Below the pieces are notes generated by a model. That model was given only the letters and a program-made list of their open reading frames with translations. It had not been told where the DNA came from and searched no databases. From the IMG/VR virus record IMGVR_UViG_3300042401_001747: a DNA stretch of 64,000 nt. The stretch is one strand, 5' to 3'. Every line of letters begins with the position of its first letter. Position 1 is the stretch's first letter. The translations under genes and the position numbers were made by a program. This document shows positions 11,807-41,533 of this stretch, piece after piece. This stretch comes from a virus.

Positions 11807-12019
11807 TGTTTAGTACCTCTCTGGAAAGTTATCTACTCCGACCGGCGGAGTTTCTTTTTTTTAGCAATTTTATAACCAGCGCGGTCGAGTTCCTCGATTA
11901 TGTGCTGCGGGATGCCTTCCCATATAGTGATTCCCCTGTGCACTAGTGCACGTGCAATAGCTGCGCGCTTGGGTCCCAGTTGATTAATATCTTGGCTCAT
12001 ACACCACCGTCAATACTTT

Positions 12020-12718
12020 CTAGTTTGTTTCAGTTAAATCTAACAGAAACCAGCCGCGCTCCCACAGCATGCCGATTGCTGAGTAACCTATAATATCTAG
12101 GTACGTGTCGGCGACTGACTCGTTTTGCGCAGCGCCTCCTCTAGATAATTGAAGATTCTTGAGTCGTGCCATCTTGTCATGACACCTAACCAATATCCCT
12201 TGGCGTCCAAACCGAGCAATATTGTGGTGACCGTAGTCCCTTTGCTTCCGAATAAGGGTTTCGGTGATATCTTCGCGCAGCATCCAGCTTCCGAAGAAGC
12301 CCGCGGAAGACGATTTAAAATTGTCAATTTCTGGATGGTTCGCGGCCGGCGACGATTGGTTCAAATTTTCACTTTTTATGCCGCACGCAGCGGCCAACGT
12401 GCCAAGAATTTTCCATTCTTCTACCCAGTACATGGGGTCCGAATCGAACCATTTCGAATTATTCAGCATTCCCTCGAACTGAAGGTCCAGAATATGGAGG
12501 CCCTCGAGGACAAAGTTCAAAAAATCGTCTTTTTCGACATCCGCACGGGAGCTCACTATCTGAGAAATCCCTGATTCTTCATATTCCTGGAAATGTTTCT
12601 CAACGTTATCTACTCTGTCAAAAATCTCACAAACCACAATCTGCGCAGCTTCTTGCCATGACCTTGGTTCGCCTGGTTCCATCTCATCCACCACCGTCAA
12701 CATATTGTTATCTCTCAT
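12020..12718 (-). CDS. Nucleotide-modification-associated domain 1 (DUF1599-like) protein
   Basis: KQRDYG...GILVRCHDKMARL...ESVADTYLDIIGY pattern. Confidence 0.7.
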   Translation of the reverse strand: MRDNNMLTVVDEMEPGEPRSWQEAAQIVVCEIFDRVDNVEKHFQEYEESGISQIVSSRADVEKDDFLNFVLEGLHILDLQFEGMLNNSKWFDSDPMYWVEEWKILGTLAAACGIKSENLNQSSPAANHPEIDNFKSSSAGFFGSWMLREDITETLIRKQRDYGHHNIARFGRQGILVRCHDKMARLKNLQLSRGGAAQNESVADTYLDIIGYSAIGMLWERGWFLLDLTETN

Positions 12719-13173
12719 TCCCCCGCTAGCAATTCGTCCCAGCTCTCGGGCGGGTTCGTTTTGATTTCCAGTCTAACCAACTCAGCCAGATTCTCCAATT
12801 CCTCAATCCACCTGGCATCGGAAACTCCGCTGAGCCCCGGCTTTTCCTCTTCAGATTCGACCCGGGCTAGACACTCGGCGATGTAGTCACGGGAGAAAGC
12901 TGCGGTTATTGACTTTTCGTTGGAGCCGCGCATGAGTACTGGACCGCGATTTCCATCCAAGGCCTCGGCTGGGACGTGAATACCCGTCACAACATACTCA
13001 TTATTATCGGTAAAGATAAAAACGACATTATTGCTGTCATCGTTGCTGCTTACCTGGTTAGCCACTTCTTCTGCAATTTCTTGCGAAATATCGGATTTCA
13101 TCAGCATCTGGACCATATCGTCCTTTTTTGGCTTTTTGTTCTTGCCCGCCGCGGGCTCCCAGTATTGTTCCAT
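12715..13173 (-). CDS. Hypothetical protein
   Basis: 152-aa ORF with ATGA coupling to the next gene. Confidence 0.65.
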   Translation of the reverse strand: MEQYWEPAAGKNKKPKKDDMVQMLMKSDISQEIAEEVANQVSSNDDSNNVVFIFTDNNEYVVTGIHVPAEALDGNRGPVLMRGSNEKSITAAFSRDYIAECLARVESEEEKPGLSGVSDARWIEELENLAELVRLEIKTNPPESWDELLAGE

Positions 13174-13794
13174 TTTTTCTCTTTTCCGTTAAGCGACGTA
13201 TCGATGGCCGCGTGTGCGATTTTTTCGTTTTTTTGACATATATCCAGTGGCACGTCGTGTATAAATTTATCTAAATACAACCAGGCGTCTACTCGATAAG
13301 AATTCCTTTAAAAACCATATAACCAGGCAGCGCTGATTCCCCGTCAGTTCGGACAATTCCAGAAACCCAAAAAGGTTTTGGATGTGGCTCGAGAGGGTCT
13401 TCTTCAATAACTGTTCTTACTGCAGCAATTGCGAGACCGCTGGCTTCCTCAGGTGTAGCAGCATGTACATCTACCCCAACCATTACTTGGACCCGATAGT
13501 TATTCATGTTCATACTCGCACTTCTGTCCATCACAGCTGCCGAATTGTCGGCAAAACATTGAATAATTGATGCAGTCTGGGTCACGTGAGTCTTCAGCTT
13601 CTGATTGGCTGTTGCGCTCTTTACGTTTTCCACGAGACTTGCCTAGCTTGTAAGCAACTAAATTAGTGACTAATCCCATGGCGCAACCTTATCCGCCACC
13701 GTTGCTTTTGTCAACCTATATATTAATCATTCCCGTAAATGAAAAATGTAATTCTTTCTGCATGCGAACATACGTTCGTACTAGTGTGTCATCT

Positions 13795-14172
13795 ATGGAC
13801 AACGGTACAAAATTCAGTATTTATAAGGCAGCTCTTGAGCTGTACATTTCCGAAAATGGAGATTCTAAAATTTCATCAAGTTATGTTGATAAAAATCAAG
13901 AAAAAGAAATCTCACTGGGAGCTTGGGTTGGTTACATCCGGCAGAGATATCGTAAAAATCAACTTTCTGCATCACGTGTTTCAGTTCTGGAGCAAATTCC
14001 GGGTTGGTCATGGGGTCCTTTTCAACCAGGACCTCCAACCGATACTGAAAGAAATGAATCAATTCGTCAAATGAGAATTGAGGGATTATCCCTTAGGCAG
14101 ATTGCTGATGAATTTGATTTGAGCCGCCAGAGGGTTCATCAGATAGTTAAAAAAATGGAATTATTTAATTAG
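13795..14172 (+). CDS. Helicase-associated (HA) domain fused to a sigma-4-like HTH; candidate regulator
   Basis: LGAWVGYIRQRYRKNQLSASRVSVLEQIPGWSW (HA) plus GLSLRQIADEFDLSRQRVHQIV (HTH). Confidence 0.75.
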   Translation: MDNGTKFSIYKAALELYISENGDSKISSSYVDKNQEKEISLGAWVGYIRQRYRKNQLSASRVSVLEQIPGWSWGPFQPGPPTDTERNESIRQMRIEGLSLRQIADEFDLSRQRVHQIVKKMELFN

Positions 14173-14217
14173 CCACGGGCTCTTCCACCACCGTGAACAG
14201 GATTTAGGTATAAGAAA

Positions 14218-14541
14218 ATGAATGACGGATTTGATAAAGACGGAAAATATTCTTTTAAAGCTAAGAACAGTTTTCCGAGAGTTATGAGAGATACGCCAAC
14301 AGCCCCGAGGGCTGCCGCTTCTGGCGGGGCTCATGCCAAGAAAGAAGGAAACGTGTTTGCTGGATTCATTCTGCTTGTTATCACACATGCTGCCTTGCTG
14401 TTCTTTGCTCTCGCTATCGCACACTCGGCAGGATTGACCAGCGTGAGCGTGGGCGTGTGGGATTCCTTTGGCTTGGCAGTGCTGTATGTGGTGTGGCGTT
14501 CTTTTGACTCCAACATCTTTGGTGGCAATCGCAAGAAGTGA
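14218..14541 (+). CDS. Two-TM membrane protein
   Basis: Two hydrophobic segments; A-box just downstream. Confidence 0.6.
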   Translation: MNDGFDKDGKYSFKAKNSFPRVMRDTPTAPRAAASGGAHAKKEGNVFAGFILLVITHAALLFFALAIAHSAGLTSVSVGVWDSFGLAVLYVVWRSFDSNIFGGNRKK

Positions 14542-15051
14542 CTGGCGTGGAAAGAGTTATCTACTCTTAGTAGTGCCATGCAGATAGCGAACGATACGAG
14601 CGTGTAAGGCTCTGTAAGCAACGCAAGAATGAGTAGCAGTATTTCCATGACTACTTTCTATCAGCGAGTTCAGAGAGAACGGACATGATGTTGTTTCCTT
14701 CATTGCATGTCAGGTTCTCGTAGTCCTCGTACGCTTTCTGTGGTGTGTATGTGTTTGCCACTATCTCGTCTCGTATCGCAGAGTAATACTTCATTGCGTT
14801 TGTGATACTTGTGAACAAGTCATCTAGTAGTTGTGATTCAGTTGGCTCGGTCATAATAAAAATCCATTTTTTGTAGTAGTGAATGTTGTTTGGTTTCCCC
14901 CTGCCACCACCCCTCACGCAGAATCAAAGGAGTATGAAACTTCCACGCTCGGGGCAGTGGTGGTACATAGAGTAGATAACTCCATGCACCAGTTTCCTTT
15001 CAGAGGTGGTGGTGTCCTGTCGGAGCCACCACCCCTGTCGGGAAAACTTAT

Positions 15052-16584
15052 CTACTCCCCTTTCTCGGGGAGAGGTACGCCCATGTGCTTGTAGTAGGTC
15101 TGTTGGAACATGTAAGGATACACGCTGTGAGCCTTGCCATTCACTTTCAGGTTGCGTAACTGTTGTATCGCTTCCTCAATGTGTGGAACAACAATGAAGT
15201 TGTGTTGGCGAGCGTAGGTAATGCACTGCATTGAGAGCAGGTCAGAGAATCCGTCATGCGCTCCACAGACACCACCATCTGTCACCCATACAAGAGGTGT
15301 GTTCTTGTATTGGCGATTCTTTACGCCCCACTCAATCGCAGGAAAGTCCACGCCGTTACCGTGTCCGTAGTCAATGTATTCCACATTCTCAACCATTTTG
15401 CCTTTGTCAGCAACGACCCACATGTTTGGCAAGTCTTTCCTTCCTCGGTCTGAATAGATAGCCACTGTTGCGCCTTGTGCGTTCTCAATGATTTCTGCAA
15501 TCTGTTCAGTAGTGAACGACATAGAGCCACTTGCGTCAATGATTACCATTCCACCACTGCCACGAATGGTCTTGTCAAAGACACGCTTCGCAGGGTCAGT
15601 CATGTAACGGTGCAATCGGCGTGGTCTGCGCCCCATGTTCGTAGCAATGCGCTTCTTGCCCATTGAGCCGTAGTGGTGGCGTGGCATTGGCTCACGACTA
15701 ACAATCAGTTCAGCCCAACCGTGTGCGCCACCAGCAGGAGCAGGGGAGACTTTGGCGTGTGGGTTTCCGTCTCTGTCACCGTCTTTGGATTCCTCGTACT
15801 CGGCGTGATGTTCTTCGTCACCTTCGCCTTTGGACTTATCTACTCCCTTTGCTTCGCCTGCCTTACCCTTTGGTGGTGGTGGGAACGAGGCAAGCCTGTC
15901 CACCCATTCTGCAAGACGCTCGGTGTGAGTGAATCCGTATGGAGCAATCCCTTCATAAGTGTCGGTGCTTGCGAGTGTGCGTTCTTTGTGCGCTTTACGC
16001 ATTTCTTTCACTGCTCGCTTGCCGATAGCAACAAGTGATTCACCCCACTCACGATTATGCCTGCGTATTCCGTTCAGGAATGTCTTGTGACCAGCAGTGT
16101 TCGCAGTAGCGATACACATAGCAACTGCGCCTGCCCAATCGTTTGACTTCGCAAGGTGTTCGCCTGTTGCCAGTTCGCTTCCGTCAGACAGAAACTTCTT
16201 GACATCAAATCCACGAGTTTCGCATAAGTAGTTCACTCGTAGTTCCTCTACAACAATCATCGCTGTCTCGGAAGCAACACTGCGCTCTACCCATTGGGTC
16301 ATCTGTTCAGGTGTGGGGGATACTTTTGCATGCATCATTTCATGCCCACGAACAACACGCTCCATGTCACCGTCCGTAGAAGGTGCGAACATGACACGGT
16401 TGGCTAGGTCTGTGCTTGGCTCTCCACGAACAGGCAGACAATCTCGGACTGTCCAGCGTTCATGTTCCATGTCTTTACGAGAGAGCATGTTGGGTTCAGG
16501 ACGGTGCGCCCCCCTTTCAGAGTTATCTACTCTACTGGGGAACGCCTTGCCTGTACCTGTATTGGTGGCAGGGGTGTAAGCCAT
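15052..16584 (-). CDS. VWA-domain protein with N-terminal HExxH motif (MoxR partner, CobT-like)
   Basis: HEMMH; MIDAS motif IIDASGSM; VTDG; adjacent to the AAA ATPase; stop TAG lies inside an A-box. Confidence 0.8.
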   Translation of the reverse strand: MAYTPATNTGTGKAFPSRVDNSERGAHRPEPNMLSRKDMEHERWTVRDCLPVRGEPSTDLANRVMFAPSTDGDMERVVRGHEMMHAKVSPTPEQMTQWVERSVASETAMIVVEELRVNYLCETRGFDVKKFLSDGSELATGEHLAKSNDWAGAVAMCIATANTAGHKTFLNGIRRHNREWGESLVAIGKRAVKEMRKAHKERTLASTDTYEGIAPYGFTHTERLAEWVDRLASFPPPPKGKAGEAKGVDKSKGEGDEEHHAEYEESKDGDRDGNPHAKVSPAPAGGAHGWAELIVSREPMPRHHYGSMGKKRIATNMGRRPRRLHRYMTDPAKRVFDKTIRGSGGMVIIDASGSMSFTTEQIAEIIENAQGATVAIYSDRGRKDLPNMWVVADKGKMVENVEYIDYGHGNGVDFPAIEWGVKNRQYKNTPLVWVTDGGVCGAHDGFSDLLSMQCITYARQHNFIVVPHIEEAIQQLRNLKVNGKAHSVYPYMFQQTYYKHMGVPLPEKGE

Positions 16585-16586
16585 TG

Positions 16587-17318
16587 CTATTTCACTCCGT
16601 CCACTGCAAGAGCGTCAAGAATCTGCTTGGCACGAGTACCGAAAGTGAGTTGGCATGCTCGTTCCATACCGACTGCCTTACGCAGTTTGTCAAGTGCCAT
16701 GAAGGCTCGCAATGAGATACGAGCCTCACCACCGTCAGCCATACGAACGGCGTAACCACGCAAGTCAGGAGACAAGCGTAGAAGTGCGTTGGGGTGTGGC
16801 TCGTTGATACGAACACGAATCGGGAAACGGTCAGCGAGTGCTGTTGGCAGTTCGCTCATGTTCTCAATGTTCGTGGTCATCACGGCAGAAAAGCCTTCTA
16901 ATGGGCGTACCAGTTCACCACTTTCAGGGTGTTGGAATGTGGCAGATTCAGGTGAATCCAACATGGCGAGAAGTGTTGCGAAAACATCGCCACCAGCCTT
17001 ATCTACTTCGTCCACGATGAGACGACCACCTTTTGTGCCGTTGCCTTTCCATGCTTTGAGAGCAGAGCCGTCAAGCCATTGGAAGCCACCGTTACTGCTT
17101 GGCATGAAGCCACCAGTTACGTCCATGTTTGTCATGTCCTCGGTGCAGACTAGGCGATGTGCGCCAGCCTCAATGTCTCCGAACGAAAGACCAGCGTAGG
17201 TCTTGCCTGTTCCAGCAGGTCCGAACAGAATGATTCTGTCTATTCCTGAGTCAAGTGCGTCCTTGACATCTTTCCAGCACTGTGGCAGTGCCTCTTGGGT
17301 GGTTGTTACTGTATCCAT
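16587..17318 (-). CDS. MoxR/CbbQ/CobS-type AAA+ ATPase
   Basis: Walker A GPAGTGKT, Walker B IVDEVD, TTN sensor, ALADRF arginine finger. Confidence 0.88.
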   Translation of the reverse strand: MDTVTTTQEALPQCWKDVKDALDSGIDRIILFGPAGTGKTYAGLSFGDIEAGAHRLVCTEDMTNMDVTGGFMPSSNGGFQWLDGSALKAWKGNGTKGGRLIVDEVDKAGGDVFATLLAMLDSPESATFQHPESGELVRPLEGFSAVMTTNIENMSELPTALADRFPIRVRINEPHPNALLRLSPDLRGYAVRMADGGEARISLRAFMALDKLRKAVGMERACQLTFGTRAKQILDALAVDGVK

Positions 17319-17640
17319 TGTATTGCTCCTTTGTAAGCGTTGTTGGTTGGACAAACACACCATACCACCTTCGGTACAGACTTTGATAATCGCTTGACAA
17401 AGTTATCTACTCTGTATGGAGAGAAGTTATCTACTCTGTTTGCGCCCCTTCCACCACCGTCAATGTGTTGCGTAGTTCTGCGTCTCGCTCGCTCGCTCGG
17501 TGCGCTTGCGTTGCGCAGATTTATCTCTCACCCCCCCCGTTCACTGCGCCCTGTGCCTGCCCCCCCTGTGGGCGAACAGCCCCGGGGGGAACCAAGCGCA
17601 GCGGGGCTATTGTCTAAAAAAGAAAAAGTTATCTACTCTC

Positions 17641-18129
17641 TTACTTCTTCCTCTGAACATCAGAGACTTGCCATAAACCTTTTTTGATTTTTGTGAACAT
17701 GTGAGATTCACTGACGTATTTCAGTGTCGTCTGATACGAGAATCCAGCAACCTCAACAAGTTGGTCGGTGGAAAACTGTTCGCCAGTGTGTTCGGTAGTC
17801 CATTTGTCAAACGCTCCCCATTTGTCTTTGCGTTTCTCGGGTCTACTCTCTTCGGTTTGGTCACTGCTAACAACAGTAGATAAATAGGTTTTTATGAACG
17901 ATGACATCACATCTGTACCTAGTGAATAATGTTTCAGCATTGCTACTGGATTTCCGTTGCGTCCTTCTCTGTGCCACTTCTCCATTATGTAAAGACCACG
18001 AACAGTCTCGCTCATTCGGTACTGCTCTGCACTCTGTTTCATTCGTGCTTTGTCTGTTTTGTATTTCTTGTAGAACGAATCATGCATACGCTTGTTCTCT
18101 TCATTTACAAACTCAATCGTGAAGTTCAT
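17641..18129 (-). CDS. Hypothetical protein
   Basis: AAGGA RBS; ends 1 bp from an A-box. Confidence 0.65.
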   Translation of the reverse strand: MNFTIEFVNEENKRMHDSFYKKYKTDKARMKQSAEQYRMSETVRGLYIMEKWHREGRNGNPVAMLKHYSLGTDVMSSFIKTYLSTVVSSDQTEESRPEKRKDKWGAFDKWTTEHTGEQFSTDQLVEVAGFSYQTTLKYVSESHMFTKIKKGLWQVSDVQRKK

Positions 18130-18243
18130 TTTTATTCCTTTTTATTTGACCCCTAATGGAGTAGACAAGCCTGAAAGGGGGAAACTTATCTACTCCAAAC
18201 TTAGTGGGTGATTTTGTTGTTTATTAGAGAGTATCGCTCATTC

Positions 18244-18438
18244 TCATAATAGAGAGAAAGCGTCTCCCTCTTCTTGTATCAAGCCGAGACTACTGCCGTT
18301 ATCCCACAAGACATGAACAGTGCCGTAATCGTCCACATCTGTTACCACCCCTTCATCTCCTCGTTGTAGTTTCGTATAAGGGTCAGTGCATGCGTCAAGC
18401 CTGACACGCTTGCCGATTAGGTCTGTCTTTGTTCTCAT
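18244..18438 (-). CDS. DUF4314-like SH3-fold small protein
   Basis: RVRL...DPY...GDEGVVTDVDDYGTVHVLWDNGSSLGL pattern. Confidence 0.75.
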   Translation of the reverse strand: MRTKTDLIGKRVRLDACTDPYTKLQRGDEGVVTDVDDYGTVHVLWDNGSSLGLIQEEGDAFSLL

Positions 18439-18582
18439 GCTGGCACTTCCGTTTCTTTGTTCAGAAGTAGGCGAATGTCTAAGAGCATGTCCATCATTTC
18501 ATGTGACGATACATTGTCTCTGCCTGAACAGTTGGCTATTGCCTTGTCCACTAGGGCGATGATTTCCTCATTCATAAGTTAT

Positions 18583-19284
18583 CTACTCTCCTTTCTTTCT
18601 CTTGGGTGCTTTTTTGAGTATGTCTGTGTATTTGAGGGTCTGTGTTGCGATGTTCATGTATTGAGCAGTAGCAACCATTACATCAACTAAGCGTCCGTAC
18701 TCGTCATTGTCGTCATACGGATAGGAAGTAAAGAACGGCTCGTCAAATGTCGGTACACCAGTGTCGTTGTAGCGATACATGTTGGCAACGCCCCATACGC
18801 CAGTCATGCCCCAATCAACGGCACTCATCATCAGTCCTTCACGGACATCGGTGAATGGATTTTCTTTGTATTCCTTCTCCAAGTCACCCTTGTTCATTTT
18901 CTTGACTTCTGATTGGTCTGTCTCTTCTGACAGGTCTTTGCCGTAGCCCTCAACGACTACTGCTATGAACTCAAACTTGCGAATAGGAAGCGAGCGAACA
19001 ACATCATCGTAAGCGTCATACATGTCCTCTTTGTGAATCAACGGAACCATTGCCACTTGATAGGGCTTAGATAGCGATAGTTCTTGTTGGTTGATGAGGC
19101 AGGCTTCGTGTTCCTCTTCGTTTTCCTCAACGCTCTCAAAAGCGACTAAGAATAATGGTGGGTTGTCTGACATCGGCTCCTCTTTGCACATTTCTGTTTT
19201 CGCATAGACGCTTCTATGAAGCAGGTCGGTCAGTATCTTGGTGATGTCATCATCAAGGTCTTTGTTGATTTTTTGTGATTTCAC
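18583..19284 (-). CDS. Hypothetical acidic protein
   Basis: Cassette promoter at 19320-19348 and GAAAGGGG RBS; stop inside an A-box. Confidence 0.7.
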   Translation of the reverse strand: MKSQKINKDLDDDITKILTDLLHRSVYAKTEMCKEEPMSDNPPLFLVAFESVEENEEEHEACLINQQELSLSKPYQVAMVPLIHKEDMYDAYDDVVRSLPIRKFEFIAVVVEGYGKDLSEETDQSEVKKMNKGDLEKEYKENPFTDVREGLMMSAVDWGMTGVWGVANMYRYNDTGVPTFDEPFFTSYPYDDNDEYGRLVDVMVATAQYMNIATQTLKYTDILKKAPKRKKGE

Positions 19285-19403
19285 TGTATGCCCCTTTCAG
19301 GCTTGTGGTGTTACTGGAAACCATACCATGCTCGGTACAGACTTCCAAATGTTATCTACTCTGACAGGCAAGGGTCGGTACAAGCCCTTACATGCCAGCA
19401 TTG

Positions 19404-19631
19404 TTATTTATTTCCTATGAGATTGTTCATGGACACGCCAAGTGCGTCACCTACAAGAAGTAGGGTCTCAACGCTTGGTGCGTAGCGTCCGTTCTCAACA
19501 CGATTTACAGTTTTCCTATCCACGCCTGCACGATTAGCGAGTTCTAACTGTGACCAGCCCTTCTTGGTTCTGTGTGTTCGTACTGATTCTGAAATGTTTT
19601 CCATAGATTGTGTGTTTTTTGTAGTTCCCAT
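19404..19631 (-). CDS. XRE/Cro-C1 helix-turn-helix protein
   Basis: WSQLELANRAGVDRKTVNRVENGRYAPSVETL. Confidence 0.88.
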   Translation of the reverse strand: MGTTKNTQSMENISESVRTHRTKKGWSQLELANRAGVDRKTVNRVENGRYAPSVETLLLVGDALGVSMNNLIGNK

Positions 19632-19670
19632 TCGGGTTCTCTTTTCTTTTGTGTAGTTATCTACTCTTAT

Positions 19671-20393
19671 TTAGACTGATGAAATAAATGATTTAGGTAT
19701 CGTTCCTTTCTTTTCGCACCGTTTCATGTATGCGAGATGTTTTGGGTATTCGGTCATGACAATCATAAGTTCGTCATCACAGAGTTCTACTAAATGATGT
19801 TCCCATTCGCTAAACGATTCGTACCAATCTTCTTCGTCCTCGGACAAGTTGGGGTTTTCAGGGTCGTTCGCTTTTTTGCATTTTTCATCAAGTTCAGGGG
19901 TGAGCCTCTGGGGGTCACGCCCACCTTCCTCAATAACTTCTCCATTATGGAAAGCAGACCACGCCACAAAGGCACTGGACTCCTCTGTGGAAACAACTCC
20001 AAAGACAAGGCTCGGATACATGGCAGAAATCTTGGCAATAAGTGCGTCACATGGACTCCACGCAGACTCGTAACGCATAGAAAGCGTTTTTCCGTCAAGA
20101 GCAGGGTCATCTACATCTACGCTACATGCGCCCCATTTGCTACCCCATGTCTCAATAGCGTCTAAGTACCCATCAAATCCGTCACTCTCACTACTGAAAG
20201 CAGTAAAGACAGTTTCTACTCCGTCAGCGTTGGTCGTCTTGATTTCTTTTGACCCTCTTGGGTCAAGTGGTACGAGTTGATTCAGGTCGTACTCTTTATG
20301 TTCTGTGTTTTTTACTTCTATGTCTTTGATGAACTTGGCAAGGTTTCTTTTTGTTCCCTTGACGGTCATGTAGTTGTAACACCAGTTAGGCAT
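19671..20393 (-). CDS. DUF1281/YubB-like ferredoxin-fold protein
   Basis: MPNWCYN...WGSKW...YESAWSP pattern. Confidence 0.7.
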   Translation of the reverse strand: MPNWCYNYMTVKGTKRNLAKFIKDIEVKNTEHKEYDLNQLVPLDPRGSKEIKTTNADGVETVFTAFSSESDGFDGYLDAIETWGSKWGACSVDVDDPALDGKTLSMRYESAWSPCDALIAKISAMYPSLVFGVVSTEESSAFVAWSAFHNGEVIEEGGRDPQRLTPELDEKCKKANDPENPNLSEDEEDWYESFSEWEHHLVELCDDELMIVMTEYPKHLAYMKRCEKKGTIPKSFISSV

Positions 20394-20639
20394 CTGTTCC
20401 TCTTTCAGTAGGTTTGTTTCCACAGCGTACCACCTGTGGAACAGACTTCACTCAGCCCTCTTCCACCACCGTGAATAGGTTGGACAAAGTTATCTACTCT
20501 CTTTCCGTCTCGGCTTGGCTCGCCCTCGTCCCTCGGATTTATCTCTCACCCCCCCGTTCATCTCGCTCTGCTGTTTTCAGCAAGAGCCCCGGGGGGAAGC
20601 AAGCATGGCGGGGCTGTTCTCGAAAAACAAGAAAGTTAT

Positions 20640-20957
20640 CTACTCTGATAGAGAAGCGTAGATAAGTGAGACGCTGACGAACGAGTGTCCGTCGTTGCTC
20701 CTACGTCTCACGAACGAGAGCATCTGCCACATGCTCGGTACATGCATGAACACTGAATCAAGAGACCACCCATACATGTCAAAGTCACATGGCTCCATAG
20801 GTTCAGGGGCGAATGAGATAACCCTCACTGACGGCGTACGCTCCCACAACCAGCGAACACGACATTCAGAGCCGACCAGTATCAGGTCTCTGTGAAACAG
20901 TGCATGACGGACATAGGACATCAAGACAGAGAAATAGATACCGATAGTCGTCCACAT
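20640..20957 (-). CDS. Hypothetical protein
   Basis: Starts 1 nt after one A-box and its stop lies inside the next. Confidence 0.55.
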   Translation of the reverse strand: MWTTIGIYFSVLMSYVRHALFHRDLILVGSECRVRWLWERTPSVRVISFAPEPMEPCDFDMYGWSLDSVFMHVPSMWQMLSFVRRRSNDGHSFVSVSLIYASLSE

Positions 20958-20960
20958 GAG

Positions 20961-21206
20961 TTATCTACTCTGACTCATGGCAGGTTTCCGTCTGTCCTCT
21001 ACGGACATTGACGCAACCTTCATCACGAGAAGCGAAAGGGTTTCCAGTAACTTACGCTCGGACACATCGTGTTCCAAAGCGACCCAGTTTGCAATGTCCT
21101 CGTACTCGCCCCAAATGATTTGCAGCGCCTCTGTGGCAGTAGTGGCGAGAGTGTAATAGTTCTCCCAAATCAACTCTGCTAACTCTTCCTGAAAAATCAC
21201 TTCCAC
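20961..21206 (-). CDS. Hypothetical protein
   Basis: GAGGAG RBS; ends ...SR* encoded by an A-box. Confidence 0.6.
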   Translation of the reverse strand: MEVIFQEELAELIWENYYTLATTATEALQIIWGEYEDIANWVALEHDVSERKLLETLSLLVMKVASMSVEDRRKPAMSQSR

Positions 21207-21343
21207 GGTCTCTCCTCAATACAATCCTCGCAAATCCAAGCACGATGATACTCGTGCCAAGTGTAGTTGGATTCAGGGTCGTCTCTACCACAGTAGAGAC
21301 ATTCATCGGGTTCTGTTTCTGTTGCCACTTATCTACTCCCTTC

Positions 21344-21949: not shown

Positions 21950-22280
21950 GAGATACCCCTTTCAGGTACGGCAGGTAGTTGCCAACAACAATGTACCACG
22001 ATGAGTACAGACTTCCAAAGAGTTATCTACTCTCATTCTTTCGCCCCACAGAGAGACTGCTCTGTTCCTTGACTTATCTCTCGCCACCCCCGTTGTTTGC
22101 TTTCGCACCCTTCGAGTGAAAAGCCCCGCTTCGCTGTGTTCCTGCCGGGGCTATCTGCCAAGAGCGCGCGCATGGGGGAGTGAGAGATAACTCGCAGATT
22201 TGTGAGAAACACGGCGAGATGAAAAGTTATCTACTCCGAGTGAAGGCTTGCGAGACGGTGGCAAGAGAGTAGATAAGTGA

Positions 22281-22312
22281 AAGTCCCCGTCAGGGGGGAC
22301 TGACGGGGACTT
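22281..22312 (-). terminator. Intrinsic terminator-like hairpin
   Basis: AAGTCCCCGTCAG-loop-CTGACGGGGACTT, a perfect 13-bp stem downstream of 22340-22810. Confidence 0.65.
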
Positions 22313-22339
22313 CCGATTGGGGGGACTGTGGGCTGTGCG

Positions 22340-22810: not shown

Positions 22811-23155
22811 TGGATACCCTTTCGGTTGGTGTTGGTGGAACATGGTCAGCGTACCACACCTAGGACAGACTTGCGAAAGTTATCTACTCTGACTGCCTTG
22901 GGGTTATCTACTCTGTTCTTCCACCACCGTCATTGTGTTGTGGCATGGTGACGAACTCGCCGTTCGTGCCGTGACCCGTGACCGTTGCGCAGATTTATCT
23001 CTCACCCCCCCGTCGCCCCTGCTTTGCCCTTTCGGGCAATAGCCCCGGGCGGACCCGAGCGTAGCGGGGCTGTTCCCCGAACTACGGCACGGCAGAAAGT
23101 TATCTACTCTGCTTGCTCTGTCGGGAGTGAACAGAGTAGATAACTTCTCGCCTGA

Positions 23156-23473: not shown

Positions 23474-23477
23474 GTCG

Positions 23478-23924: not shown

Positions 23925-24201
23925 TGCTGTACCTCTTTCGTTTGCTGATGACATGTGTAGCGTACCAGCAGGGGTACAGACTTCCACAACGTGGACTTAT
24001 CTACTCTGTTACTTCGCCACGCCACTCAAAGACCCACCGATTATTTGACTTATCTCTCACACCCCCCGTGTTTGCGCTTTGCCCACTTTGTGGGGATAGC
24101 CCCGGTGATGACCGAGCATGGCGGGGCTTTTCCCCTCGCGCACGAAACGGGAACAAAGTTATCTACTCTCACTCGCCACAACGAGAGTAGATAACTTCTG
24201 T

Positions 24202-24411
24202 TCAGTCGGAGTGTTCGTTCGTCTCCATGTCAATGGCGAAAGCATCTTCCATTTTGGCTTCTGCCAACTTGGCTTCCTGCCTACCGAATGTCTTAGCCAT
24301 TTTGCCTGCTTCCACAAGGCTCTTGGCTTCCACAGTGGTGCTTTCGTGCCACTCTGCCAAACCAATCTTTTCTTGCTTTGACAGTAGAACCATGAGTTCA
24401 TACTCTTTCAT
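24202..24411 (-). CDS. Hypothetical protein
   Basis: Cassette promoter at 24443-24471; GAAAGGGG RBS. Confidence 0.65.
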   Translation of the reverse strand: MKEYELMVLLSKQEKIGLAEWHESTTVEAKSLVEAGKMAKTFGRQEAKLAEAKMEDAFAIDMETNEHSD

Positions 24412-24536
24412 TGTTGCGCCCCTTTCACTTGGCTTCGCTGACAATGTACCACGCCTAGTACAGACTTCCGAGAGTTATCTACTCTCATTCTGCCGAACCA
24501 ATGGGGGCTTGCGCCCCCACTAGTCGTGTGAGTTGA

Positions 24537-30828: not shown

Positions 30829-31116
30829 GATTTCCCCTTTCAGTTGGAACACCCCAACAATACCAGCACAGGTACAGGCTCTCGAAAGTTATCTACTCTC
30901 TTTCAGAGTCTCGCTCTCGAAAGTTATCTACTCTGTTTCGCCTCGCCCCTCGCGCGCCCTCGACCAGCAGGCTTATCTCTCACACCCCCGTTTCGCCTGC
31001 CCCCCTTTGGGGTGAAAGCCCCGATGGGGAACCACGCGTAGCGGGGCTTACTAACGCCCTCGCCATGCGAGGTTGTTCTCGCAATGACGACGGAGATTCC
31101 GGGGAGTTATCTACTC

Positions 31117-33655: not shown

Positions 33656-33844
33656 ATCACTCACAACTTCATCATGAAGAGAGAGTAGATAACTTCACAA
33701 GGAGCCCCGGCTTCGCCGACTAACGCCCTCGCTTCGCTTCGGTTGTTCTCGCTCTGAAAACGAGAGAACGGAGAGAGTAGATAACTTTTGAAAGTCTGTA
33801 CTCCCCGTGGTACATTGTTGGTGTCTCAACGAAAGGGGATTCAA

Positions 33845-35021: not shown

Positions 35022-36938
35022 ATGAGGTTGTACTTAGATAAAAACGAGATAGTGCTCGACTTCCCATACGATGCACATCAGGTCTCGGAACTGAAACTAA
35101 TAAAAGGTTCGCGCTGGGATAAGCAAACAAAGCTATGGAGAGTTCCGGTTACCTCTCTGGAAGCTGCTCGAGATTTCGCCATCAAACACGACTTCACCGT
35201 GACTATTGATGTCCTCACATTTAACGCCCCCAAAATCAAAACTGGCAAAGCAAAAGTCTCACTCGAAGATGAAATGATTTCTATCCGTGTTCCGTACGAG
35301 CGCGTTGTTGTGAAAGCCGTGAAACAAATACCAGCAGTTTCGTGGAACGCCGATAAACACTGCTGGCAAGCACCCGTGTCGTCTGTTCTAAATACCATCG
35401 AATGGGCAGAGAAGTTTGATGTGGTAGTGGACCCTGCTGTTGCTGCACTATCGGACCAAGTAACGGCACGTATGAACGAGTTCGTTGAGGCCTCGCGCGC
35501 GACAGAAGCCCATGTTGACATCGCGGCATTACAAGGAGAACTGCTTCCCTATCAGCATGCCGGAGTCGTATACGCAGCCCGTGCTCGACGTACATTTATT
35601 GCCGATGACATGGGGTTAGGTAAAACTCTCCAATCAATAGCAACGCTCGAATACGTTATGGATTCGTATCCGGCCGTGGTCGTTTGTCCACCGAGCTTGG
35701 TTCTCAACTGGGTAACAGAATGGAACCGGTGGCTGCCTAATCGAAAGGTTGTACCGGTAACCAATCGCAAAGACTTCCCTGAACGTGGCTCGTATGACGT
35801 TGTTGTTGTTGGTTATAGCAACATTGCTCACTGGGAGAAGCGACTTACCGGACATCGTTCCTACATCTTCGACGAAAGTCATTACGCAAAAACACCAACA
35901 GCACAAAGAACAAAAGCAGCAGTAAAGATGGCTAAGTCTGCTCACAAAGACGGCCTCGTACTGTGTCTCACCGGAACGCCAGTGACTAATCGTCCGAATG
36001 AATACGCTTCTCAGTTAGAAATACTGGGAAGGTTAAAAGACTTCGGTGGTCTTTGGGGTTTTTATCGACGCTATTGCGCTGCCTACCAAGACAACTTCGG
36101 CCAATGGAACATCGCCGGCCATTCGCACCTCGACGAACTAAACGAGCGCCTTCGAGGTACGTGCTACATAAGAAGAACGAAAGACCAAGTGCTTTCAGAA
36201 CTTCCTCCCGTAATGCATAGCAAGCTGCTGGTAGAGGGAAGCTCTGCTGCAATGAAAGAATACAAGAAAGCAGAAACAGACATCCTGTTGTACATCGCTG
36301 AACGAGCACGACAACTCGCTCTCGAACAAGGAAAGCCGTCTTACGGTGCTGCTATTCACGCAATGATTAAAGCAGAAGCTAACGAACACCTAGTTCGACT
36401 ATCGGTACTTCGTAAGCTCGCTGCCAAAGCGAAGATGGAAGTCGTAGAAGAGTGGATAAACACCCGTATAGAGAACGGAAAGAAAGTTGTCGTTGCTGCT
36501 CACCATAGAGACATTGTCGATGAGTTGGCTAGGAAGTTTGGTAACTTGCGCATTCAGGGTGGCATGAGCGTAGAGGAAGTCGAAGAGAACAAGCATCGTT
36601 TTCAGACGGAAGACATCGAAAGCGCACCCGTAATTGTTTTGTCAATACAAGCTGCAAAGACTGGACACACATTGACGGCAGCAGAAGAGTGCTTGTTTGT
36701 TGAGTTGCCGTGGACGCCGGCCGATGTTGACCAGACTTACAGTAGATTGCACAGAATTGGACAAAAAGGAAGCGTAACGGCTACGTACATGCTTGCAGCC
36801 GGAACAATAGACGAAGAAATCTACGAGATTATTGACAAAAAACGTTCAGTAGTCAATGCTGCTGTTGATGGTGGGGAAGTAGATAACTCTGACTTTTCTA
36901 CCCAGATGATTCTTAGCTTGCTAGATAAGCTTTCTTAA
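35022..36938 (+). CDS. SNF2-family helicase with two N-terminal HARP-like domains (SMARCAL1-like annealing helicase)
   Basis: ADDMGLGKT, DESH, LTGTP, QTYSRLHRIGQ; twin (F/V)PY...W....(L/C)W..P repeats at the N-terminus. Confidence 0.85.
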   Translation: MRLYLDKNEIVLDFPYDAHQVSELKLIKGSRWDKQTKLWRVPVTSLEAARDFAIKHDFTVTIDVLTFNAPKIKTGKAKVSLEDEMISIRVPYERVVVKAVKQIPAVSWNADKHCWQAPVSSVLNTIEWAEKFDVVVDPAVAALSDQVTARMNEFVEASRATEAHVDIAALQGELLPYQHAGVVYAARARRTFIADDMGLGKTLQSIATLEYVMDSYPAVVVCPPSLVLNWVTEWNRWLPNRKVVPVTNRKDFPERGSYDVVVVGYSNIAHWEKRLTGHRSYIFDESHYAKTPTAQRTKAAVKMAKSAHKDGLVLCLTGTPVTNRPNEYASQLEILGRLKDFGGLWGFYRRYCAAYQDNFGQWNIAGHSHLDELNERLRGTCYIRRTKDQVLSELPPVMHSKLLVEGSSAAMKEYKKAETDILLYIAERARQLALEQGKPSYGAAIHAMIKAEANEHLVRLSVLRKLAAKAKMEVVEEWINTRIENGKKVVVAAHHRDIVDELARKFGNLRIQGGMSVEEVEENKHRFQTEDIESAPVIVLSIQAAKTGHTLTAAEECLFVELPWTPADVDQTYSRLHRIGQKGSVTATYMLAAGTIDEEIYEIIDKKRSVVNAAVDGGEVDNSDFSTQMILSLLDKLS

Positions 36939-37425: not shown

Positions 37426-38454
37426 TTAGGATACTCCTGACAATAGATAATCCTGAGCCTTTACTTTTGCTCGTGTCACCCATGAGTTGTTGCTCATAGA
37501 CGCGAGTGCTCGCTCGGTAGGTGTTGCTTCGCGATAGTGGTCGAGATACTCGCCGATTGCGTTGACCAAAGACCAGCCGTTGTACCCGTAGTTCTTTGCG
37601 TTGTTATCGTTTGCGTAAATTGCGCGTACCAATGCTGTTACTTCTTTGTGGTTTGTTTCTTGACGCGCTGTTGCGTCTTTGCTTATCGGGAATACTTGAT
37701 TCAGTGTCTTGTCAAGTATTTGAGAAGAAGCAGGAACATTTATTGACAGCAACTTTTCTGCTGTAAGCGTGAACTCGCGAGCCCATTCGGTCGAGATGTT
37801 GAGAACTTCGTTCGCTTGCTCCATTGCTCTATCTGCATTGCGTGTATGGCGCGCAGTAAAGACTCGCTTCGCTGATGAAACACCAGCAATAACTGTGTTT
37901 TTACATACGGCACGAATACTCGTGTTCGCAAAGGTAATCGCCGTTTTGCCGTCATGTCCATTGTGTACGAGTAGATAACGCTCAATCGAGTCATTGATTC
38001 CTGCTGGGTCGATTATCAGCGCACCCATGTCAATAGACGCAAAGAATTCACAGCCATCTCTCAGCACCCCACAGGTATCCACAACGGCGTCCCCGTCCGA
38101 AGCTCCAACTATGTCGAGGGCGTAATTGAGGCATTCCCGATTTTGCTGAACTACATAGCGAGTACCCACTGTTGCTAGTCCATTAAACGACCCGTCCGTA
38201 TTCACCCGTACCGTTGCTCTGCTATCTGGAACGAGGATTGTAGTTCCGTCTGGTTGGCGAATCGGCTCGCCTTCATCGTCACATACGGCTACCCGTGTCG
38301 TTACTACGTCGAAATCTGCCTGTGCTGCTGCGAGCATTGCCTCAGCCGTTTGTAGGCCTTTCATAGGCTGCCCAAGCTTGTGCCATGGAATCTGTCGGTC
38401 TGCGTACGCCATGCGTGCCGTGCCGTCTTTGTTGATTTCTATCTGATGAGCCAT
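37426..38454 (-). CDS. DUF932 family (phage/plasmid-like) protein
   Basis: PWHKLG...YVVQQNRE...YLLVHNGHDG...IRAVCKNT...RHT...WSLVNAIGEYLDH pattern. Confidence 0.82.
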   Translation of the reverse strand: MAHQIEINKDGTARMAYADRQIPWHKLGQPMKGLQTAEAMLAAAQADFDVVTTRVAVCDDEGEPIRQPDGTTILVPDSRATVRVNTDGSFNGLATVGTRYVVQQNRECLNYALDIVGASDGDAVVDTCGVLRDGCEFFASIDMGALIIDPAGINDSIERYLLVHNGHDGKTAITFANTSIRAVCKNTVIAGVSSAKRVFTARHTRNADRAMEQANEVLNISTEWAREFTLTAEKLLSINVPASSQILDKTLNQVFPISKDATARQETNHKEVTALVRAIYANDNNAKNYGYNGWSLVNAIGEYLDHYREATPTERALASMSNNSWVTRAKVKAQDYLLSGVS

Positions 38455-40610: not shown

Positions 40611-40619
40611 GAACGCAAA

Positions 40620-40671
40620 AGCGCCGTGCCGATACTTATCTACTCTCATAGGTAAGTGCCGACACGACGCT
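40620..40671. terminator. Long imperfect hairpin between convergent genes, containing an A-box
   Basis: ~23-bp stem AGCGCCGTGCCGATACTTATCTA / TAGGTAAGTGCCGACACGACGCT with a 6-nt loop. Confidence 0.55.
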
Positions 40672-40692
40672 TACGTCGTGTACCGAATGTGT

Positions 40693-41013
40693 TTACTTAG
40701 TCCGTGCGTGTTTCCCGTAAGGATACGAAGGGTGCGCCCGTCGTGCGTCGTGACGCATGCCCTTGATTTCTCCGTATGCCCAAACGCCAAGCAGTGTTCC
40801 CGTCACAGTGCCCGTGACGGTCAGAAACAAACCAGCGAAAAGGTCGTAAGCAGTGTGGCTCTGATACGAGAGCGATGCGAGATACAGACCAAGCACGGTG
40901 AACACCCATGGCGTTCCTGCGAGAAGTTTGTAAATCAGTGTCGGATAGTTTTCTGAAAGCCAGTTAGTAGTCCGTGCTTCTATTTGGTCTAGGTGGTTGA
41001 TGATGTTTGTCAT
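40693..41013 (-). CDS. Two-TM membrane protein
   Basis: Cassette promoter at 41047-41075; hydrophobic segments. Confidence 0.65.
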   Translation of the reverse strand: MTNIINHLDQIEARTTNWLSENYPTLIYKLLAGTPWVFTVLGLYLASLSYQSHTAYDLFAGLFLTVTGTVTGTLLGVWAYGEIKGMRHDARRAHPSYPYGKHARTK

Positions 41014-41272
41014 GATGGTTTCCTATCAGTTGGTGGTGACACACGAACTGTACCACTCACAGTACAAACTATCAAGGATTATCTCTCACTCCCCCGACAT
41101 TGGGGACAGTGGCTGTGGTGGGAGCCCCGGGTTTTGTTGGTTATCTTGTGTAGATAGAGGGTCACGGCAAGGTTTACTATTCCAATCGACCAGCCAACAT
41201 AGTTTCTCATGCTTCACATTTTACAAGCACGGTCTCGGCCATCTAGAAGGAAATGACGACTGTGACGGTTAT

Positions 41273-41533
41273 CTACTCTGTGTCAGTATCGCCACGCAGG
41301 TAGTTGGCACGCATCACCTCAGTGGTGGCCTCTCCAATTTGGTCAAGTGTTGTGATGTCGTAGATACAACCACAGCGACAGCAGAGATACGAACGGCTAT
41401 CCCACAAACCGTTAGCAACGGGTTCTACCATTTCGCCTGATAGTAGACATGCGTAGAAACCGTCTATGTCAGGTTCGTTACCACATTCACATACAAGCCA
41501 GTCGGCTACTGTTCTGTCGAGATTGAGTGTCAT
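41273..41533 (-). CDS. Small Cys-rich (Zn-finger) protein
   Basis: CECG...CCRCG; stop inside an A-box. Confidence 0.65.
   Translation of the reverse strand: MTLNLDRTVADWLVCECGNEPDIDGFYACLLSGEMVEPVANGLWDSRSYLCCRCGCIYDITTLDQIGEATTEVMRANYLRGDTDTE

What the first reader, a model, noticed from the sequence alone, without database searches (positions are those of the whole stretch)
11826..41280. The 13-bp asymmetric A-box (AGAGTAGATAACT) marks gene ends, gene starts, promoters and codons
Seen: about 60 copies, essentially confined to 11.8-41.3 kb, mostly co-oriented with transcription and flipping where genes flip (32.3-33.8 kb, 38.6-40.2 kb). (1) It carries stops in two frames (TAG, TAA) and supplies the actual stop of genes ending at 15052, 18583, 20640, 20961, 27703, 32378, 32907 and 41273, so these proteins end in ...E* or ...SR*. 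(2) ATGs follow within 1-2 nt at 18575, 20957 and 33437. (3) It sits 1-3 bp upstream of the -35 of many promoters (19351, 22021, 22878, 24473, 28279, 30887, 31514, 33774, 38613, 39353). (4) It is written into ORFs as RVDN/GVDK/EVDN at 12605, 15835, 16521, 16998, 23459, 25587, 25922, 30184, 36876 and 40203. Inference: it could be a repressor 'stoperator' that blocks elongation, an activator site, or the crossover point of cassette insertion. Stop-codon capture recalls integron cassettes, whose stops often lie in the attC inverse core.
Basis: partly seen in the sequence, partly recalled or inferred. Interest (0 to 1): 0.85.

Follow-up and report, generated by a model that had tools for sequence, protein, structure and literature searches.

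The report
Private operator word of lake phages
One oriented 13-base DNA word occurs about 70 times in the 30-kb early-gene block of an uncultured ~150-kb freshwater actinobacterial phage. It is most likely the docking site of a phage-encoded regulator that gates about 17 near-identical promoters and blocks read-through between gene cassettes, and related phages use their own spellings of the word at the same places.

Summary
There are 37 exact copies and 67 with up to 2 mismatches (1.4 expected). 69 of 70 copies of the core GTAGATAA lie in 11.8-41.3 kb. 52-58 of 69 are co-oriented with transcription, and 57 of 69 lie outside genes. Thirteen copies sit next to the -35 of a 17-member promoter family (TTGgAAGTCTGTMC-N6-TGGTAYnnT), most often 1 nt from it. 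In-gene copies are selected at the DNA level.

Relatives in IMG/VR, including three complete 151-170-kb genomes, confine the word to one 30-40-kb block. Each lineage re-spells it (GTAGATAAC, ATAGATAAC, CTAGATAAG, AGGATAATG, GGGATAAC), even at the same codons of the same gene. That points to a co-evolving, phage-encoded reader.

Best reading (about 0.55): a stoperator-like dispersed operator, acting as promoter gate and polar roadblock. The reader protein is not identified. A winged-helix protein (17641-18129) and the single XRE protein (19404-19631) are candidates; the HA-HTH protein is unlikely. No Cluster-A-type repressor and no integrase were found, so this works like a stoperator system but is not shown to be a member. 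The integron-like crossover idea is not supported.

This scan had already found the same word system in a related genome (e1-5685030).

The parts
11827..41279 (.). A-box domain: 69 of the window's 70 GTAGATAA cores, plus about 23 B-boxes and 17 promoters of one family
22021..22033 (-). Promoter-adjacent A-box (type example). The other adjacent boxes are at 19350, 22878, 23995, 24473, 26125, 28279, 30887, 31514 (-) and 33774, 38613, 39353 (+). 17401 is more distal.
   Evidence: The box ends 1 nt before the -35 hexamer in 10 units, so it spans -49..-37. The same spacing is seen in G001.
21990..22018 (-). Promoter of the family: TTGGAA - 17 bp with conserved GTCTGTAC - extended -10 TGGTACATT
   Evidence: 16 regex matches plus the variant at 30881. 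The family is conserved in G001, L026, L032 and L038.
18577..18589 (-). Junction or translation-start class: the box holds the stop (TAG) of gene 18583-19284, its 5' GGAG/AGAG can serve as a Shine-Dalgarno sequence, and the next gene's ATG follows 1 nt after. Also at 20959, 27701 (-) and 33423 (+).
   Evidence: the same class in G001 and L032
16521..16533 (-). In-gene A-box, codons 18-22 of the 510-aa gene (RVDN), 51 nt after its start
   Evidence: At the same codons each lineage carries its own spelling and the amino acid follows it: GTA (V) / ATA (I) / CTA (L).
16997..17009 (-). In-gene A-box core inside the invariant Walker-B peptide DEVDK of the AAA_5 ATPase
   Evidence: The peptide is the same in 15 lineages. 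Only the GTAGATAA lineages use the codons GTA-GAT-AAG; all but one of the others use a GAC codon, so GATAA is not spelled (L062 has GTG-GAT-AAG).
15834..15846 (-). In-gene A-box (GVDK) in a linker of the 510-aa protein
   Evidence: Identical in G001. L031, L037 and L040 carry their own spelling at this place, and L035 a 2-mismatch version of its own.
37968..37980 (+). Antisense in-gene copy inside the DUF932 gene. It faces read-through from the convergent SNF2 operon, as does 36876-36888 (+) near the SNF2 stop.
   Evidence: Perfectly kept in G002 and G001, where coding identity is about 73%.
23098..23145 (-). Divergent box pair at a cassette 3' end. Others: 24157-24196, 25241-25285, 27517-27556, 22225-22278, 20634-20667, 26403-26434.
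   Evidence: The four tightest pairs fold into 16-19-bp hairpins, dG -23 to -28 kcal/mol, z -5.7 to -6.4; the three looser pairs give weaker hairpins (dG -8 to -16). Centre-to-centre spacing varies from 19 to 41 bp.
22993..23013 (-). B-box (ACGGGGGGGTGAGAGATAAAT): shares AGATAAnT with the A-box. About 23 copies. It takes the A-box place at promoters 27027, 32467 and 33039.
   Evidence: B-type boxes with the lineage's own core in G001 and L038
20448..20473 (-). C-element (CACGGTGGTGGAAGA, 20459-20473) in the box position of promoter P20448, which heads the operon containing the XRE gene
   Evidence: the element is shared by nearly all lineages
17641..18129 (-). Candidate reader 1: 162-aa protein with a C-terminal winged helix
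   Evidence: AF2 pLDDT 82, wHTH at residues 100-155. Weak fold matches to winged-helix domains. The recognition helix differs between box spellings and is the same within them, but not beyond the phylogenetic background.
19404..19631 (-). Candidate reader 2: 75-aa XRE/Cro-type HTH
   Evidence: Pfam HTH_3 4e-15. It is the only HTH_3 gene in the complete genomes that have GATAA boxes, it always lies inside the box block, and it is absent from complete genome G006, which lacks such boxes. Its recognition helix is invariant.
13795..14172 (+).
   Evidence: The helix LSRQRVHQI does not vary across the 29 loci aligned, including lineages with other boxes or none.
24009..24445 (-). Cassette present here and absent in relative G002
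   Evidence: 47-bp overlap at the junction, which is the repeated box+promoter unit.

Best explanation
The A-box is the dispersed, asymmetric operator of a phage-encoded sequence-specific DNA-binding regulator that controls the early or accessory gene array of this ~150-kb actinobacterial phage.

Proposed mechanism. At 13 of 17 near-identical host-type promoters (extended -10) the bound protein sits directly upstream of the -35 and gates initiation; repression is the more likely effect. The other roughly 55 copies are co-oriented with transcription and lie at gene junctions, at translation starts and inside genes. There the protein acts as a polar roadblock or insulator, so each cassette can be shut off or isolated. 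This is the way Cluster A mycobacteriophage stoperators work. The stops, the ATG-adjacent copies and the hairpin pairs are secondary uses of a word that has to sit at tightly packed gene borders.

Shown here: enrichment, confinement to one block, orientation, fixed promoter spacing, DNA-level selection, and re-spelling by lineage at homologous positions.

Inferred: that a protein binds, that the effect is repression and roadblock, and which protein it is. The winged-helix protein 17641-18129 and the XRE protein 19404-19631 are the candidates, both encoded in the array downstream of boxes, which would allow autoregulation.
For: 1. Non-random and confined to one domain. The same holds in three complete relatives: G001 at 92-131 kb of 156, G003 at 2-34 kb of 170, G004 at 27-62 kb of 151.

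2. Tied to transcription: 52-58 of 69 copies are sense and flip with gene direction; 57 of 69 lie outside genes.

3. Fixed geometry with RNA polymerase: the box spans -49..-37 in 10 promoters, and the same spacing is seen in G001 at about 67% nucleotide identity. In lineage L026 the box lies on the -35 itself in 3 of 6 promoters (GGTAGATAAGTCTGAACC-N6-TGGTAY), which suits occlusion. The promoters carry an extended -10 and should not need an activator.

4. Purifying selection on the DNA: box positions are 93.8% identical vs 85.4% for other intergenic DNA (G002), and 88% vs 76% (G001). VD dipeptides are encoded by GTAGAT 15 times out of 45 inside the region against 4.3 expected (p=1e-5); outside it the figure is 6 of 40 against 4.0 (not significant).

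5. A co-evolving trans factor: each lineage has its own spelling in the same architecture of promoter, junction, hairpin and B-box. At codons 18-22 of the 510-aa gene the spelling changes in place and the residue changes with it (V/I/L). In the invariant DEVDK peptide only the GTAGATAA lineages use GTA-GAT-AAG.

6. This matches the published stoperator picture: 13-14-bp asymmetric sites, one orientation relative to transcription, some in promoters and most not, and motifs that differ between related phages (PMC6550527, PMC9283540).
Against: No homologue of the Cluster A repressor was identified, although the genome was never searched with a Cluster A repressor sequence. The only clear HTH proteins in the array have recognition helices that do not change with the spelling (XRE, HA-HTH). 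The winged-helix covariation ranks only 115th of 1824 windows, so it is not distinguishable from shared ancestry.

No integrase is present in the complete relatives, so lysogenic 'immunity' is not established.

The density, about one A- or B-box per 320 bp, is far above that of known stoperator systems. Sense orientation, start-codon placement and hairpin pairs would also fit an RNA-level role.

In more distant lineages the lineage-specific word lies inside the promoter core, which leaves room for a promoter-specificity (activator) function.
Confidence: 0.55

Rival explanations
1. Activator or promoter-specificity site. The box is read by a phage factor that recruits or re-targets host RNA polymerase to the cassette promoters, in the manner of class II activators, WhiB7-type or MotA-type factors. 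Copies without a promoter would be by-products or sinks.
For: The box centre lies near -43 at fixed spacing in two lineages. In distant lineages the lineage-specific repeated word is part of the promoter core. The spacer GTCTGTMC is conserved, which suggests factor-dependent promoters. The phage encodes no sigma-70 region 2 protein but has a sigma-4-like HA-HTH and a WhiB.
Against: About 55 of 69 A-boxes have no promoter downstream, and nothing is conserved beyond +14. In-gene and junction copies are conserved and re-spelled in place, which an activator does not explain. Spacing varies in some units (17401, 23995, 26125), and in L026 the box overlaps the -35. The extended -10 argues against any need for activation.
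Confidence: 0.15
2. RNA-level signal. The sense-strand word in early mRNAs is a site for a phage RNA-binding protein, nuclease or antisense RNA, controlling translation or decay in the manner of T4 RegA/RegB. The inverted pairs would be stabilising or terminating hairpins.
For: There is a strong sense bias. Copies lie between the Shine-Dalgarno sequence and the ATG, directly after the ATG, or 51 nt into an ORF. Pairs form 16-19-bp hairpins with complementary flanks. The pattern resembles the Cluster K start-associated sequences (PMC3203893).
Against: Thirteen boxes lie upstream of the -35 at fixed spacing, outside their own transcript. The antisense in-gene copy at 37968 is perfectly conserved. 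No Rfam family matches. B-boxes share only half of the word.
Confidence: 0.12
3. Recombination or selfish repeat. The box is the crossover or target site of a cassette-shuffling system (integron-like), or a REP/MITE-like element that spreads by itself.
For: Cassette content differs between relatives. One indel (24009-24445) has a 47-bp junction overlap equal to the box+promoter repeat. Breakpoints are somewhat closer to boxes than random. Inverted doublets resemble REPINs.
Against: The complete genomes have no tyrosine or serine recombinase and no Y1 (RAYT-type) transposase. Most breakpoints lie at gene or promoter edges, not in boxes. Copies inside conserved genes, re-spelled at the same codon, show position-specific function rather than insertion. 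The fixed promoter spacing also argues against it.
Confidence: 0.08
4. Host-factor site. The word (reverse complement TTATCTAC) is a variant DnaA box or another host protein's site, used to recruit or titrate a host factor.
For: The core differs from TTATCCAC by one base. Distant lineages show a modest excess of DnaA-like boxes: 6-9 per 20 kb against 1-3 for the reversed control. An earlier scan note (e1-5685030) makes the same link.
Against: Spellings differ between closely related phage lineages and change together at homologous sites, which is not expected for one conserved host protein. The window and G001 show no excess of true DnaA boxes (8 vs 6-7 in the control). I could not establish that the positions are equivalent.
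Confidence: 0.05

Closest known systems
Operator/stoperator network of Cluster A mycobacteriophages (L5 gp71, Bxb1, TipsytheTRex Rep; PMC6550527, PMC9283540)
   Same: A 13-bp asymmetric word. Many copies, oriented with transcription. Some lie at an early promoter, but most are unrelated to promoters and sit in short gaps between genes or inside genes. Related phages carry related but distinct spellings.
   Different: There are 69 A-boxes plus about 23 B-boxes in 30 kb, against 20-30 sites per ~50-kb genome. They are confined to about 20% of a 150-kb genome rather than spread genome-wide. About 17 promoters are gated, not one or two. No Rep-like two-domain repressor was recognised. No integrase is present, so temperate life is not shown. 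Inverted pairs form hairpins.
Start-associated sequences (SAS/ESAS) of Cluster K mycobacteriophages (PMC3203893)
   Same: A 13-bp asymmetric word restricted to the non-structural half of the genome and in one orientation. It lies a few bases before start codons and contains a Shine-Dalgarno-like GGAG. The upstream gene's stop sometimes lies inside it. Inverted repeats are associated with it, and the consensus is subcluster-specific. The function is unknown.
   Different: Only a minority of A-boxes are next to start codons. Many are next to promoters, at 3' ends or inside genes. The sequences are unrelated.
Phage P1 C1 repressor with dispersed asymmetric 17-bp operators; Streptomyces phage phiC31 repressor with conserved inverted repeats beside a family of early promoters (both from my own knowledge, not checked here)
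   Same: One regulator with many operators spread over a large phage genome, often beside reiterated promoters. P1 is a plasmid prophage without integration.
   Different: These systems have far fewer sites. The phiC31 sites are palindromic. No homology was tested.
Integron attC sites
   Same: Arrays of small cassettes, with stop codons inside the repeated site.
   Different: No integrase is present. The site is 13 bp without the paired core and inverse-core structure. Copies lie inside conserved genes and at fixed promoter spacing. Each cassette carries its own promoter.

Membership tests
Cluster A-type repressor/stoperator system | Asymmetric 13-14-bp sites, tens of copies, far above chance | tested here: met
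   37 exact copies and 67 with up to 2 mismatches against 1.4 expected; no dyad symmetry in the box
Cluster A-type repressor/stoperator system | Sites predominantly in one orientation relative to transcription | tested here: met
   52 sense and 17 antisense by the nearest-gene rule, p=3e-5; the strand flips with gene direction
Cluster A-type repressor/stoperator system | A site within or at the early lytic promoter, plus many sites not associated with promoters | tested here: met
   13 boxes sit next to the -35 of the promoter family and about 55 have no promoter. In L026 the box overlaps the -35.
Cluster A-type repressor/stoperator system | Sites distributed across the whole genome | tested here: not met
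   Confined to one 30-40-kb block in three complete 151-170-kb relatives and to 11.8-41.3 kb here
Cluster A-type repressor/stoperator system | Monomeric repressor with an N-terminal HTH plus a 'Stoperator' domain (homologue of L5 gp71 / TipsytheTRex Rep) | tested here: inconclusive
   Most array proteins of 60 aa or more were scanned against Pfam and eight against PHROGs. They gave only an XRE, an HA+sigma-4-like HTH and a predicted winged helix. XRE matches Cro/434/SinR-type structures. No direct search with a Cluster A Rep sequence was possible.
Cluster A-type repressor/stoperator system | Protein binding that blocks elongation in an orientation-dependent way | not testable with these tools
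Cluster A-type repressor/stoperator system | Temperate life cycle (integrase or parABS) with repressor-based immunity | tested here: inconclusive
   No tyrosine or serine recombinase in the complete relatives. A ParA-like gene lies at 21344-21949, and a ParB_N protein lies elsewhere in all genomes, including the one without GATAA boxes.
Cluster K start-associated sequences | The word lies 3-7 bp upstream of start codons in nearly all copies | tested here: not met
   Only about 4-6 of 69 copies are next to a start codon
Integron cassette array (attC plus IntI) | Tyrosine-recombinase integrase and structured attC sites at every cassette border | tested here: not met
   PF00589 absent in G001/G002. 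Breakpoints are mostly not in boxes. Boxes occur inside genes.
REP/REPIN with RAYT transposase | Y1 (IS200/IS605-like) transposase in the genome; hairpin doublets | tested here: not met
   PF01797 absent in four complete genomes, although doublet hairpins exist

The most novel reading that the evidence does not exclude
These are probably virulent (integrase-less) 150-kb phages. In that case the word would not be a lysogeny operator. It would be a private, re-spellable 'punctuation code' for a plug-and-play early-gene array, in which one oriented word, read by a fast-evolving phage factor, serves as promoter gate, polar stop and cassette insulator at once. Lineages would re-spell all ~70-100 copies, even inside conserved genes, under pressure from cross-silencing by co-infecting relatives. 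The word may have derived from host DnaA-box-like sites.
Probability: 0.2. Interest if true: 0.85.

Novelty: new variant of a known kind. Interest (0 to 1): 0.66.

Why it matters
Dispersed 'stoperator' control has been studied experimentally only in a few temperate actinophage groups. Here the same logic appears in a family of uncultured ~150-kb freshwater actinobacterial phages, at several times the density and limited to the early cassette block.

Nature has already run the experiment. At least five spellings of the word sit at homologous positions, including the same codons of the same gene. That makes the co-evolution of a regulator and ~100 targets directly testable.

The system also gives a ready map of promoters, transcription units and regulators for a phage group that has no cultured member. 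It offers compact, orthogonal operator/regulator pairs for actinobacterial genetics.

Tried and rejected
- Megablast of 20 kb against INPHARED phages found no match. No whole genome is held for the window.
- XRE: it occurs only in the GATAA-box clade, but that clade may represent a single evolutionary event, and its helix is invariant. It is kept only as a candidate, perhaps reading the constant GATAA.
- Winged-helix covariation looked one-to-one, but a window scan over 12 protein families ranks it 115th of 1824, so it is no better than the phylogenetic background.
- The acidic 152-aa and 233-aa proteins co-occur with the boxes but have no family match and do not look DNA-binding.
- Integron and REP/RAYT readings: no recombinase or Y1 transposase.
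- T7-type RNA polymerase search: no hit, but the control cannot ring, so this is uninformative. No sigma-70 region 2 protein was found.
- Rfam: no match.
- The consensus terminator and promoter scan was uninformative.
- Foldseek of the winged-helix model gave only weak generic winged-helix matches.
- The test of whether the box doubles as a -10 or -35 for hidden promoters was negative: nothing is conserved downstream.

Full report
OBSERVATION

AGAGTAGATAACT occurs 37 times exactly (none expected) and 67 times with up to 2 mismatches (1.44 expected). The invariant core GTAGATAA occurs 70 times, 69 of them between 11827 and 41279. Information content covers -4..+14 (aatgAGAGTAGATAACTtt), and no position further out is conserved across all copies.

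I called genes with a codon-usage score. Against that map, 57 of 69 boxes are not inside genes although 73% of the region is coding (p=5e-22). By the nearest-gene rule 52 are sense and 17 antisense (p=3e-5). Most antisense copies are the inverted partners of 3'-end pairs or sit at convergent junctions.

The box supplies the stop of at least nine ORFs. An ATG follows 1 nt after the box at 18575, 20957, 27699 and 33437. The ten listed boxes sit next to promoters. The ten listed in-ORF copies exist, all in the only open frame.

CONTEXT

Earlier notes of this scan describe the genome as an uncultured ~150-157-kb freshwater tailed phage. My own data fit that description:
- a WhiB gene (8190-8540) and an Rpf-like transglycosylase point to an actinobacterial host;
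- the best hits for the DUF932 protein are actinophages;
- the IMG/VR relatives are 148-170-kb genomes rated 100% complete (G001, G004, G006 with direct terminal repeats; G003 classed linear).

The array genes are mostly small ORFans. Among them are a ParA-like protein, AAA_5, SNF2, DUF932, DUF3846, one XRE protein and one HA+HTH protein.

ANATOMY

The window holds a family of 17 promoters: a -35 of T(T/C)G(G/C)AA, a 17-bp spacer beginning GTCTGTMC, and an extended -10 TGGTAYnnT (plus the variant at 30881).
- Thirteen have an A-box directly upstream. In ten the gap is exactly 1 nt, so the box spans -49..-37.
- Three (27027, 32467, 33039) have a related 'B-box' there (GGGGG-n-GTGAGAGATAAsT). 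About 23 copies of the B-box lie in the region, and it shares AGATAAsT with the A-box.
- One (20448), which heads the operon containing the XRE gene, has instead the element CACGGTGGTGGAAGA. This element has about 9 copies, all on the minus strand.

A typical gap between cassettes reads: stop, inverted A-box, A-box, GC-rich hairpin, B-box, C-element, one or two A-boxes, promoter, 5'UTR, ATG. The four tightest inverted pairs fold into 16-19-bp hairpins (dG -23 to -28 kcal/mol, z about -6; looser pairs are weaker). Centre-to-centre spacing varies from 19 to 41 bp, which argues against a fixed protein dimer.

SELECTION

In alignments with relatives, box positions are better conserved than other intergenic DNA: 93.8% vs 85.4% (G002) and 88% vs 76% (G001). 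In-gene boxes at 15834, 16997, 23458, 25586, 25921, 36876 and the antisense copy at 37968 are identical in G001, where coding identity is about 73%.

Inside the region, VD dipeptides are encoded by GTAGAT 15 times out of 45 against 4.3 expected (p=1e-5). Outside it the figure is 6 of 40 against 4.0.

COMPARATIVE EVIDENCE (THE KEY RESULT)

A pattern scan found relatives that share the box plus the promoter. A search with the HA-HTH protein gave 56 loci from a broad family.

The complete genomes G001, G003 and G004 confine the word to one block: 92-131 kb of 156, 2-34 kb of 170, and 27-62 kb of 151. The spelling differs by lineage:
- aGAGTAGATAAcT (this clade);
- gGTAGATAAGTc (L026);
- ctAATAGATAACT (L030, L032);
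- aCTAGATAAGTg (L031);
- ctaaAGGATAATGTAa (L035, L038);
- GTGGGATAAc (L037);
- AGGATAGTGC (L040).

The architecture stays the same across these lineages: promoter-adjacent copies, SD-box-ATG copies, hairpin pairs, and B-type boxes carrying the lineage's own core.

At homologous codons the word is re-spelled in place. Codons 18-22 of the 510-aa gene read AGA-GTA-GAT-AAC (RVDN) here. They read GTA-GAT-AAG in G001 and L026, ATA-GAT-AAC (I) in L030 and L032, CTA-GAT-AAG (L) in L031, and the L040 word in L040. In the invariant Walker-B peptide DEVDK of the AAA_5 ATPase, only the GTAGATAA lineages use GTA-GAT-AAG. All but one of the others use a GAC codon, so GATAA is not spelled; L062 has GTG-GAT-AAG.

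So the nucleic-acid word itself is under position-specific selection, and it is read by something that co-evolves with the phage lineage. That means a phage-encoded factor, not a conserved host protein.

WHO READS IT

This is unresolved.
- HA-HTH has an invariant recognition helix in every lineage. It pairs more naturally with the equally invariant C-element or the promoter spacer; that pairing is inference.
- The XRE protein is the only HTH_3 gene in each complete genome that has GATAA boxes. It always lies inside the block, and it is absent from complete genome G006, which lacks such boxes. Its recognition helix is invariant and the co-occurrence may be a single evolutionary event. It could read the constant GATAA.
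- The 162-aa protein 17641-18129 has a predicted C-terminal winged helix. Its recognition helix is identical within spellings (TTLKY[VI]SES for GTAGATAA, despite 43-56% overall identity) and differs between them. A control scan ranks this window only 115th of 1824.

Both candidate genes lie in the operons P20448/P19344 downstream of boxes, so autoregulation is possible.

MECHANISM

The best-supported reading is a stoperator-like operator network. A protein bound at -49..-37 (or on the -35 in L026) gates strong extended -10 promoters. At the other oriented sites it blocks elongation or insulates cassettes. This matches the published features of Cluster A stoperators.

It differs from them in four ways: density, confinement to one block, the number of gated promoters, and the absence of a recognisable Rep homologue or integrase. 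I therefore file it as 'works like' a stoperator system, not as a member.

The rivals are an activator or promoter-specificity site, an RNA-level signal, a recombination or selfish repeat, and a host DnaA-like site. Each is weighed in its own section of this report. The crossover reading has little support.

EARLIER SCAN NOTES

Earlier scan note e1-5685030 reports the same GAGTAGATAA system in a related genome, with re-spelling in relatives and a DnaA link. I found the re-spelling independently and tested the protein-cost claim (it holds). I could confirm the DnaA link only partly.

Noticed in passing
window 10292-25075 (-): 10292, 10594, 11997, 12684, 14181, 17447, 20459, 22917, 25061: C-element (T)GACGGTGGTGGAAGA: about 9 copies, all on the minus strand. 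It is present in nearly every lineage of the phage family, including those without GATAA boxes. At P20448 it takes the place of the A-box. By inference it is a likely site for an invariant factor such as the HA-HTH protein.
   Followed up: partly
window 12713-41084, e.g. 22993-23013 (-): B-box GGGGG-n-GTGAGAGATAAsT, about 23 copies. The left half (GGGGG.GTG) is conserved across lineages. The right half carries each lineage's own core (GGATAATG in L038, GTAGATAAGT in G001).
   Followed up: partly
promoters, e.g. 21990-22018 (-), 33788-33816 (+): The promoter spacer GTCTGTMC (-29..-22) is conserved across lineages at 60-70% identity. That is unusual for a spacer. It may be a second factor's site, with geometry like a MotA box.
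   Followed up: no
L044, L059, L051, L075, L067, L062, L046 (gap upstream of the AAA_5 homologue): In lineages without GATAA boxes, the lineage-specific repeated words are tandem promoter cores. Examples: AACTTGTTACTCGYCCGTAACG-n-TAATCT and TAGGAAACTCCAGCC-n4-TGGTATAGA.
   Followed up: partly
window 12715-13173 (-) and 18583-19284 (-): Two acidic ORFan proteins (152 and 233 aa) occur only in the GATAA-box clade and evolve fast (37-61% identity). Their function is unknown; they could be partners or antagonists of the regulator.
   Followed up: partly
window 9404-9898 (-): A 164-aa protein with a weak match to the G39P helicase-loader family has the most lineage-group-specific segment of all proteins scanned (residues about 89-112).
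   Followed up: no
window 7480-7493, 13272, 38481: Short palindromes AGATAAATTTATCT or AGATAAATCTATCT (inverted GATAA halves) outside or at the edge of the array. Distant lineages have paired true DnaA boxes (TGTGGATAA-n15-TTATCCAC) a few kb upstream of whiB.
   Followed up: partly
window 42902-44212: A 1.3-kb low-complexity tract just right of the array is missing in relative G002 (alignment jump).
   Followed up: no
window 29473-31037: A cassette with a 387-aa ORFan gene, flanked by two antisense and two sense A-boxes, is present here and absent in G002.
   Followed up: partly
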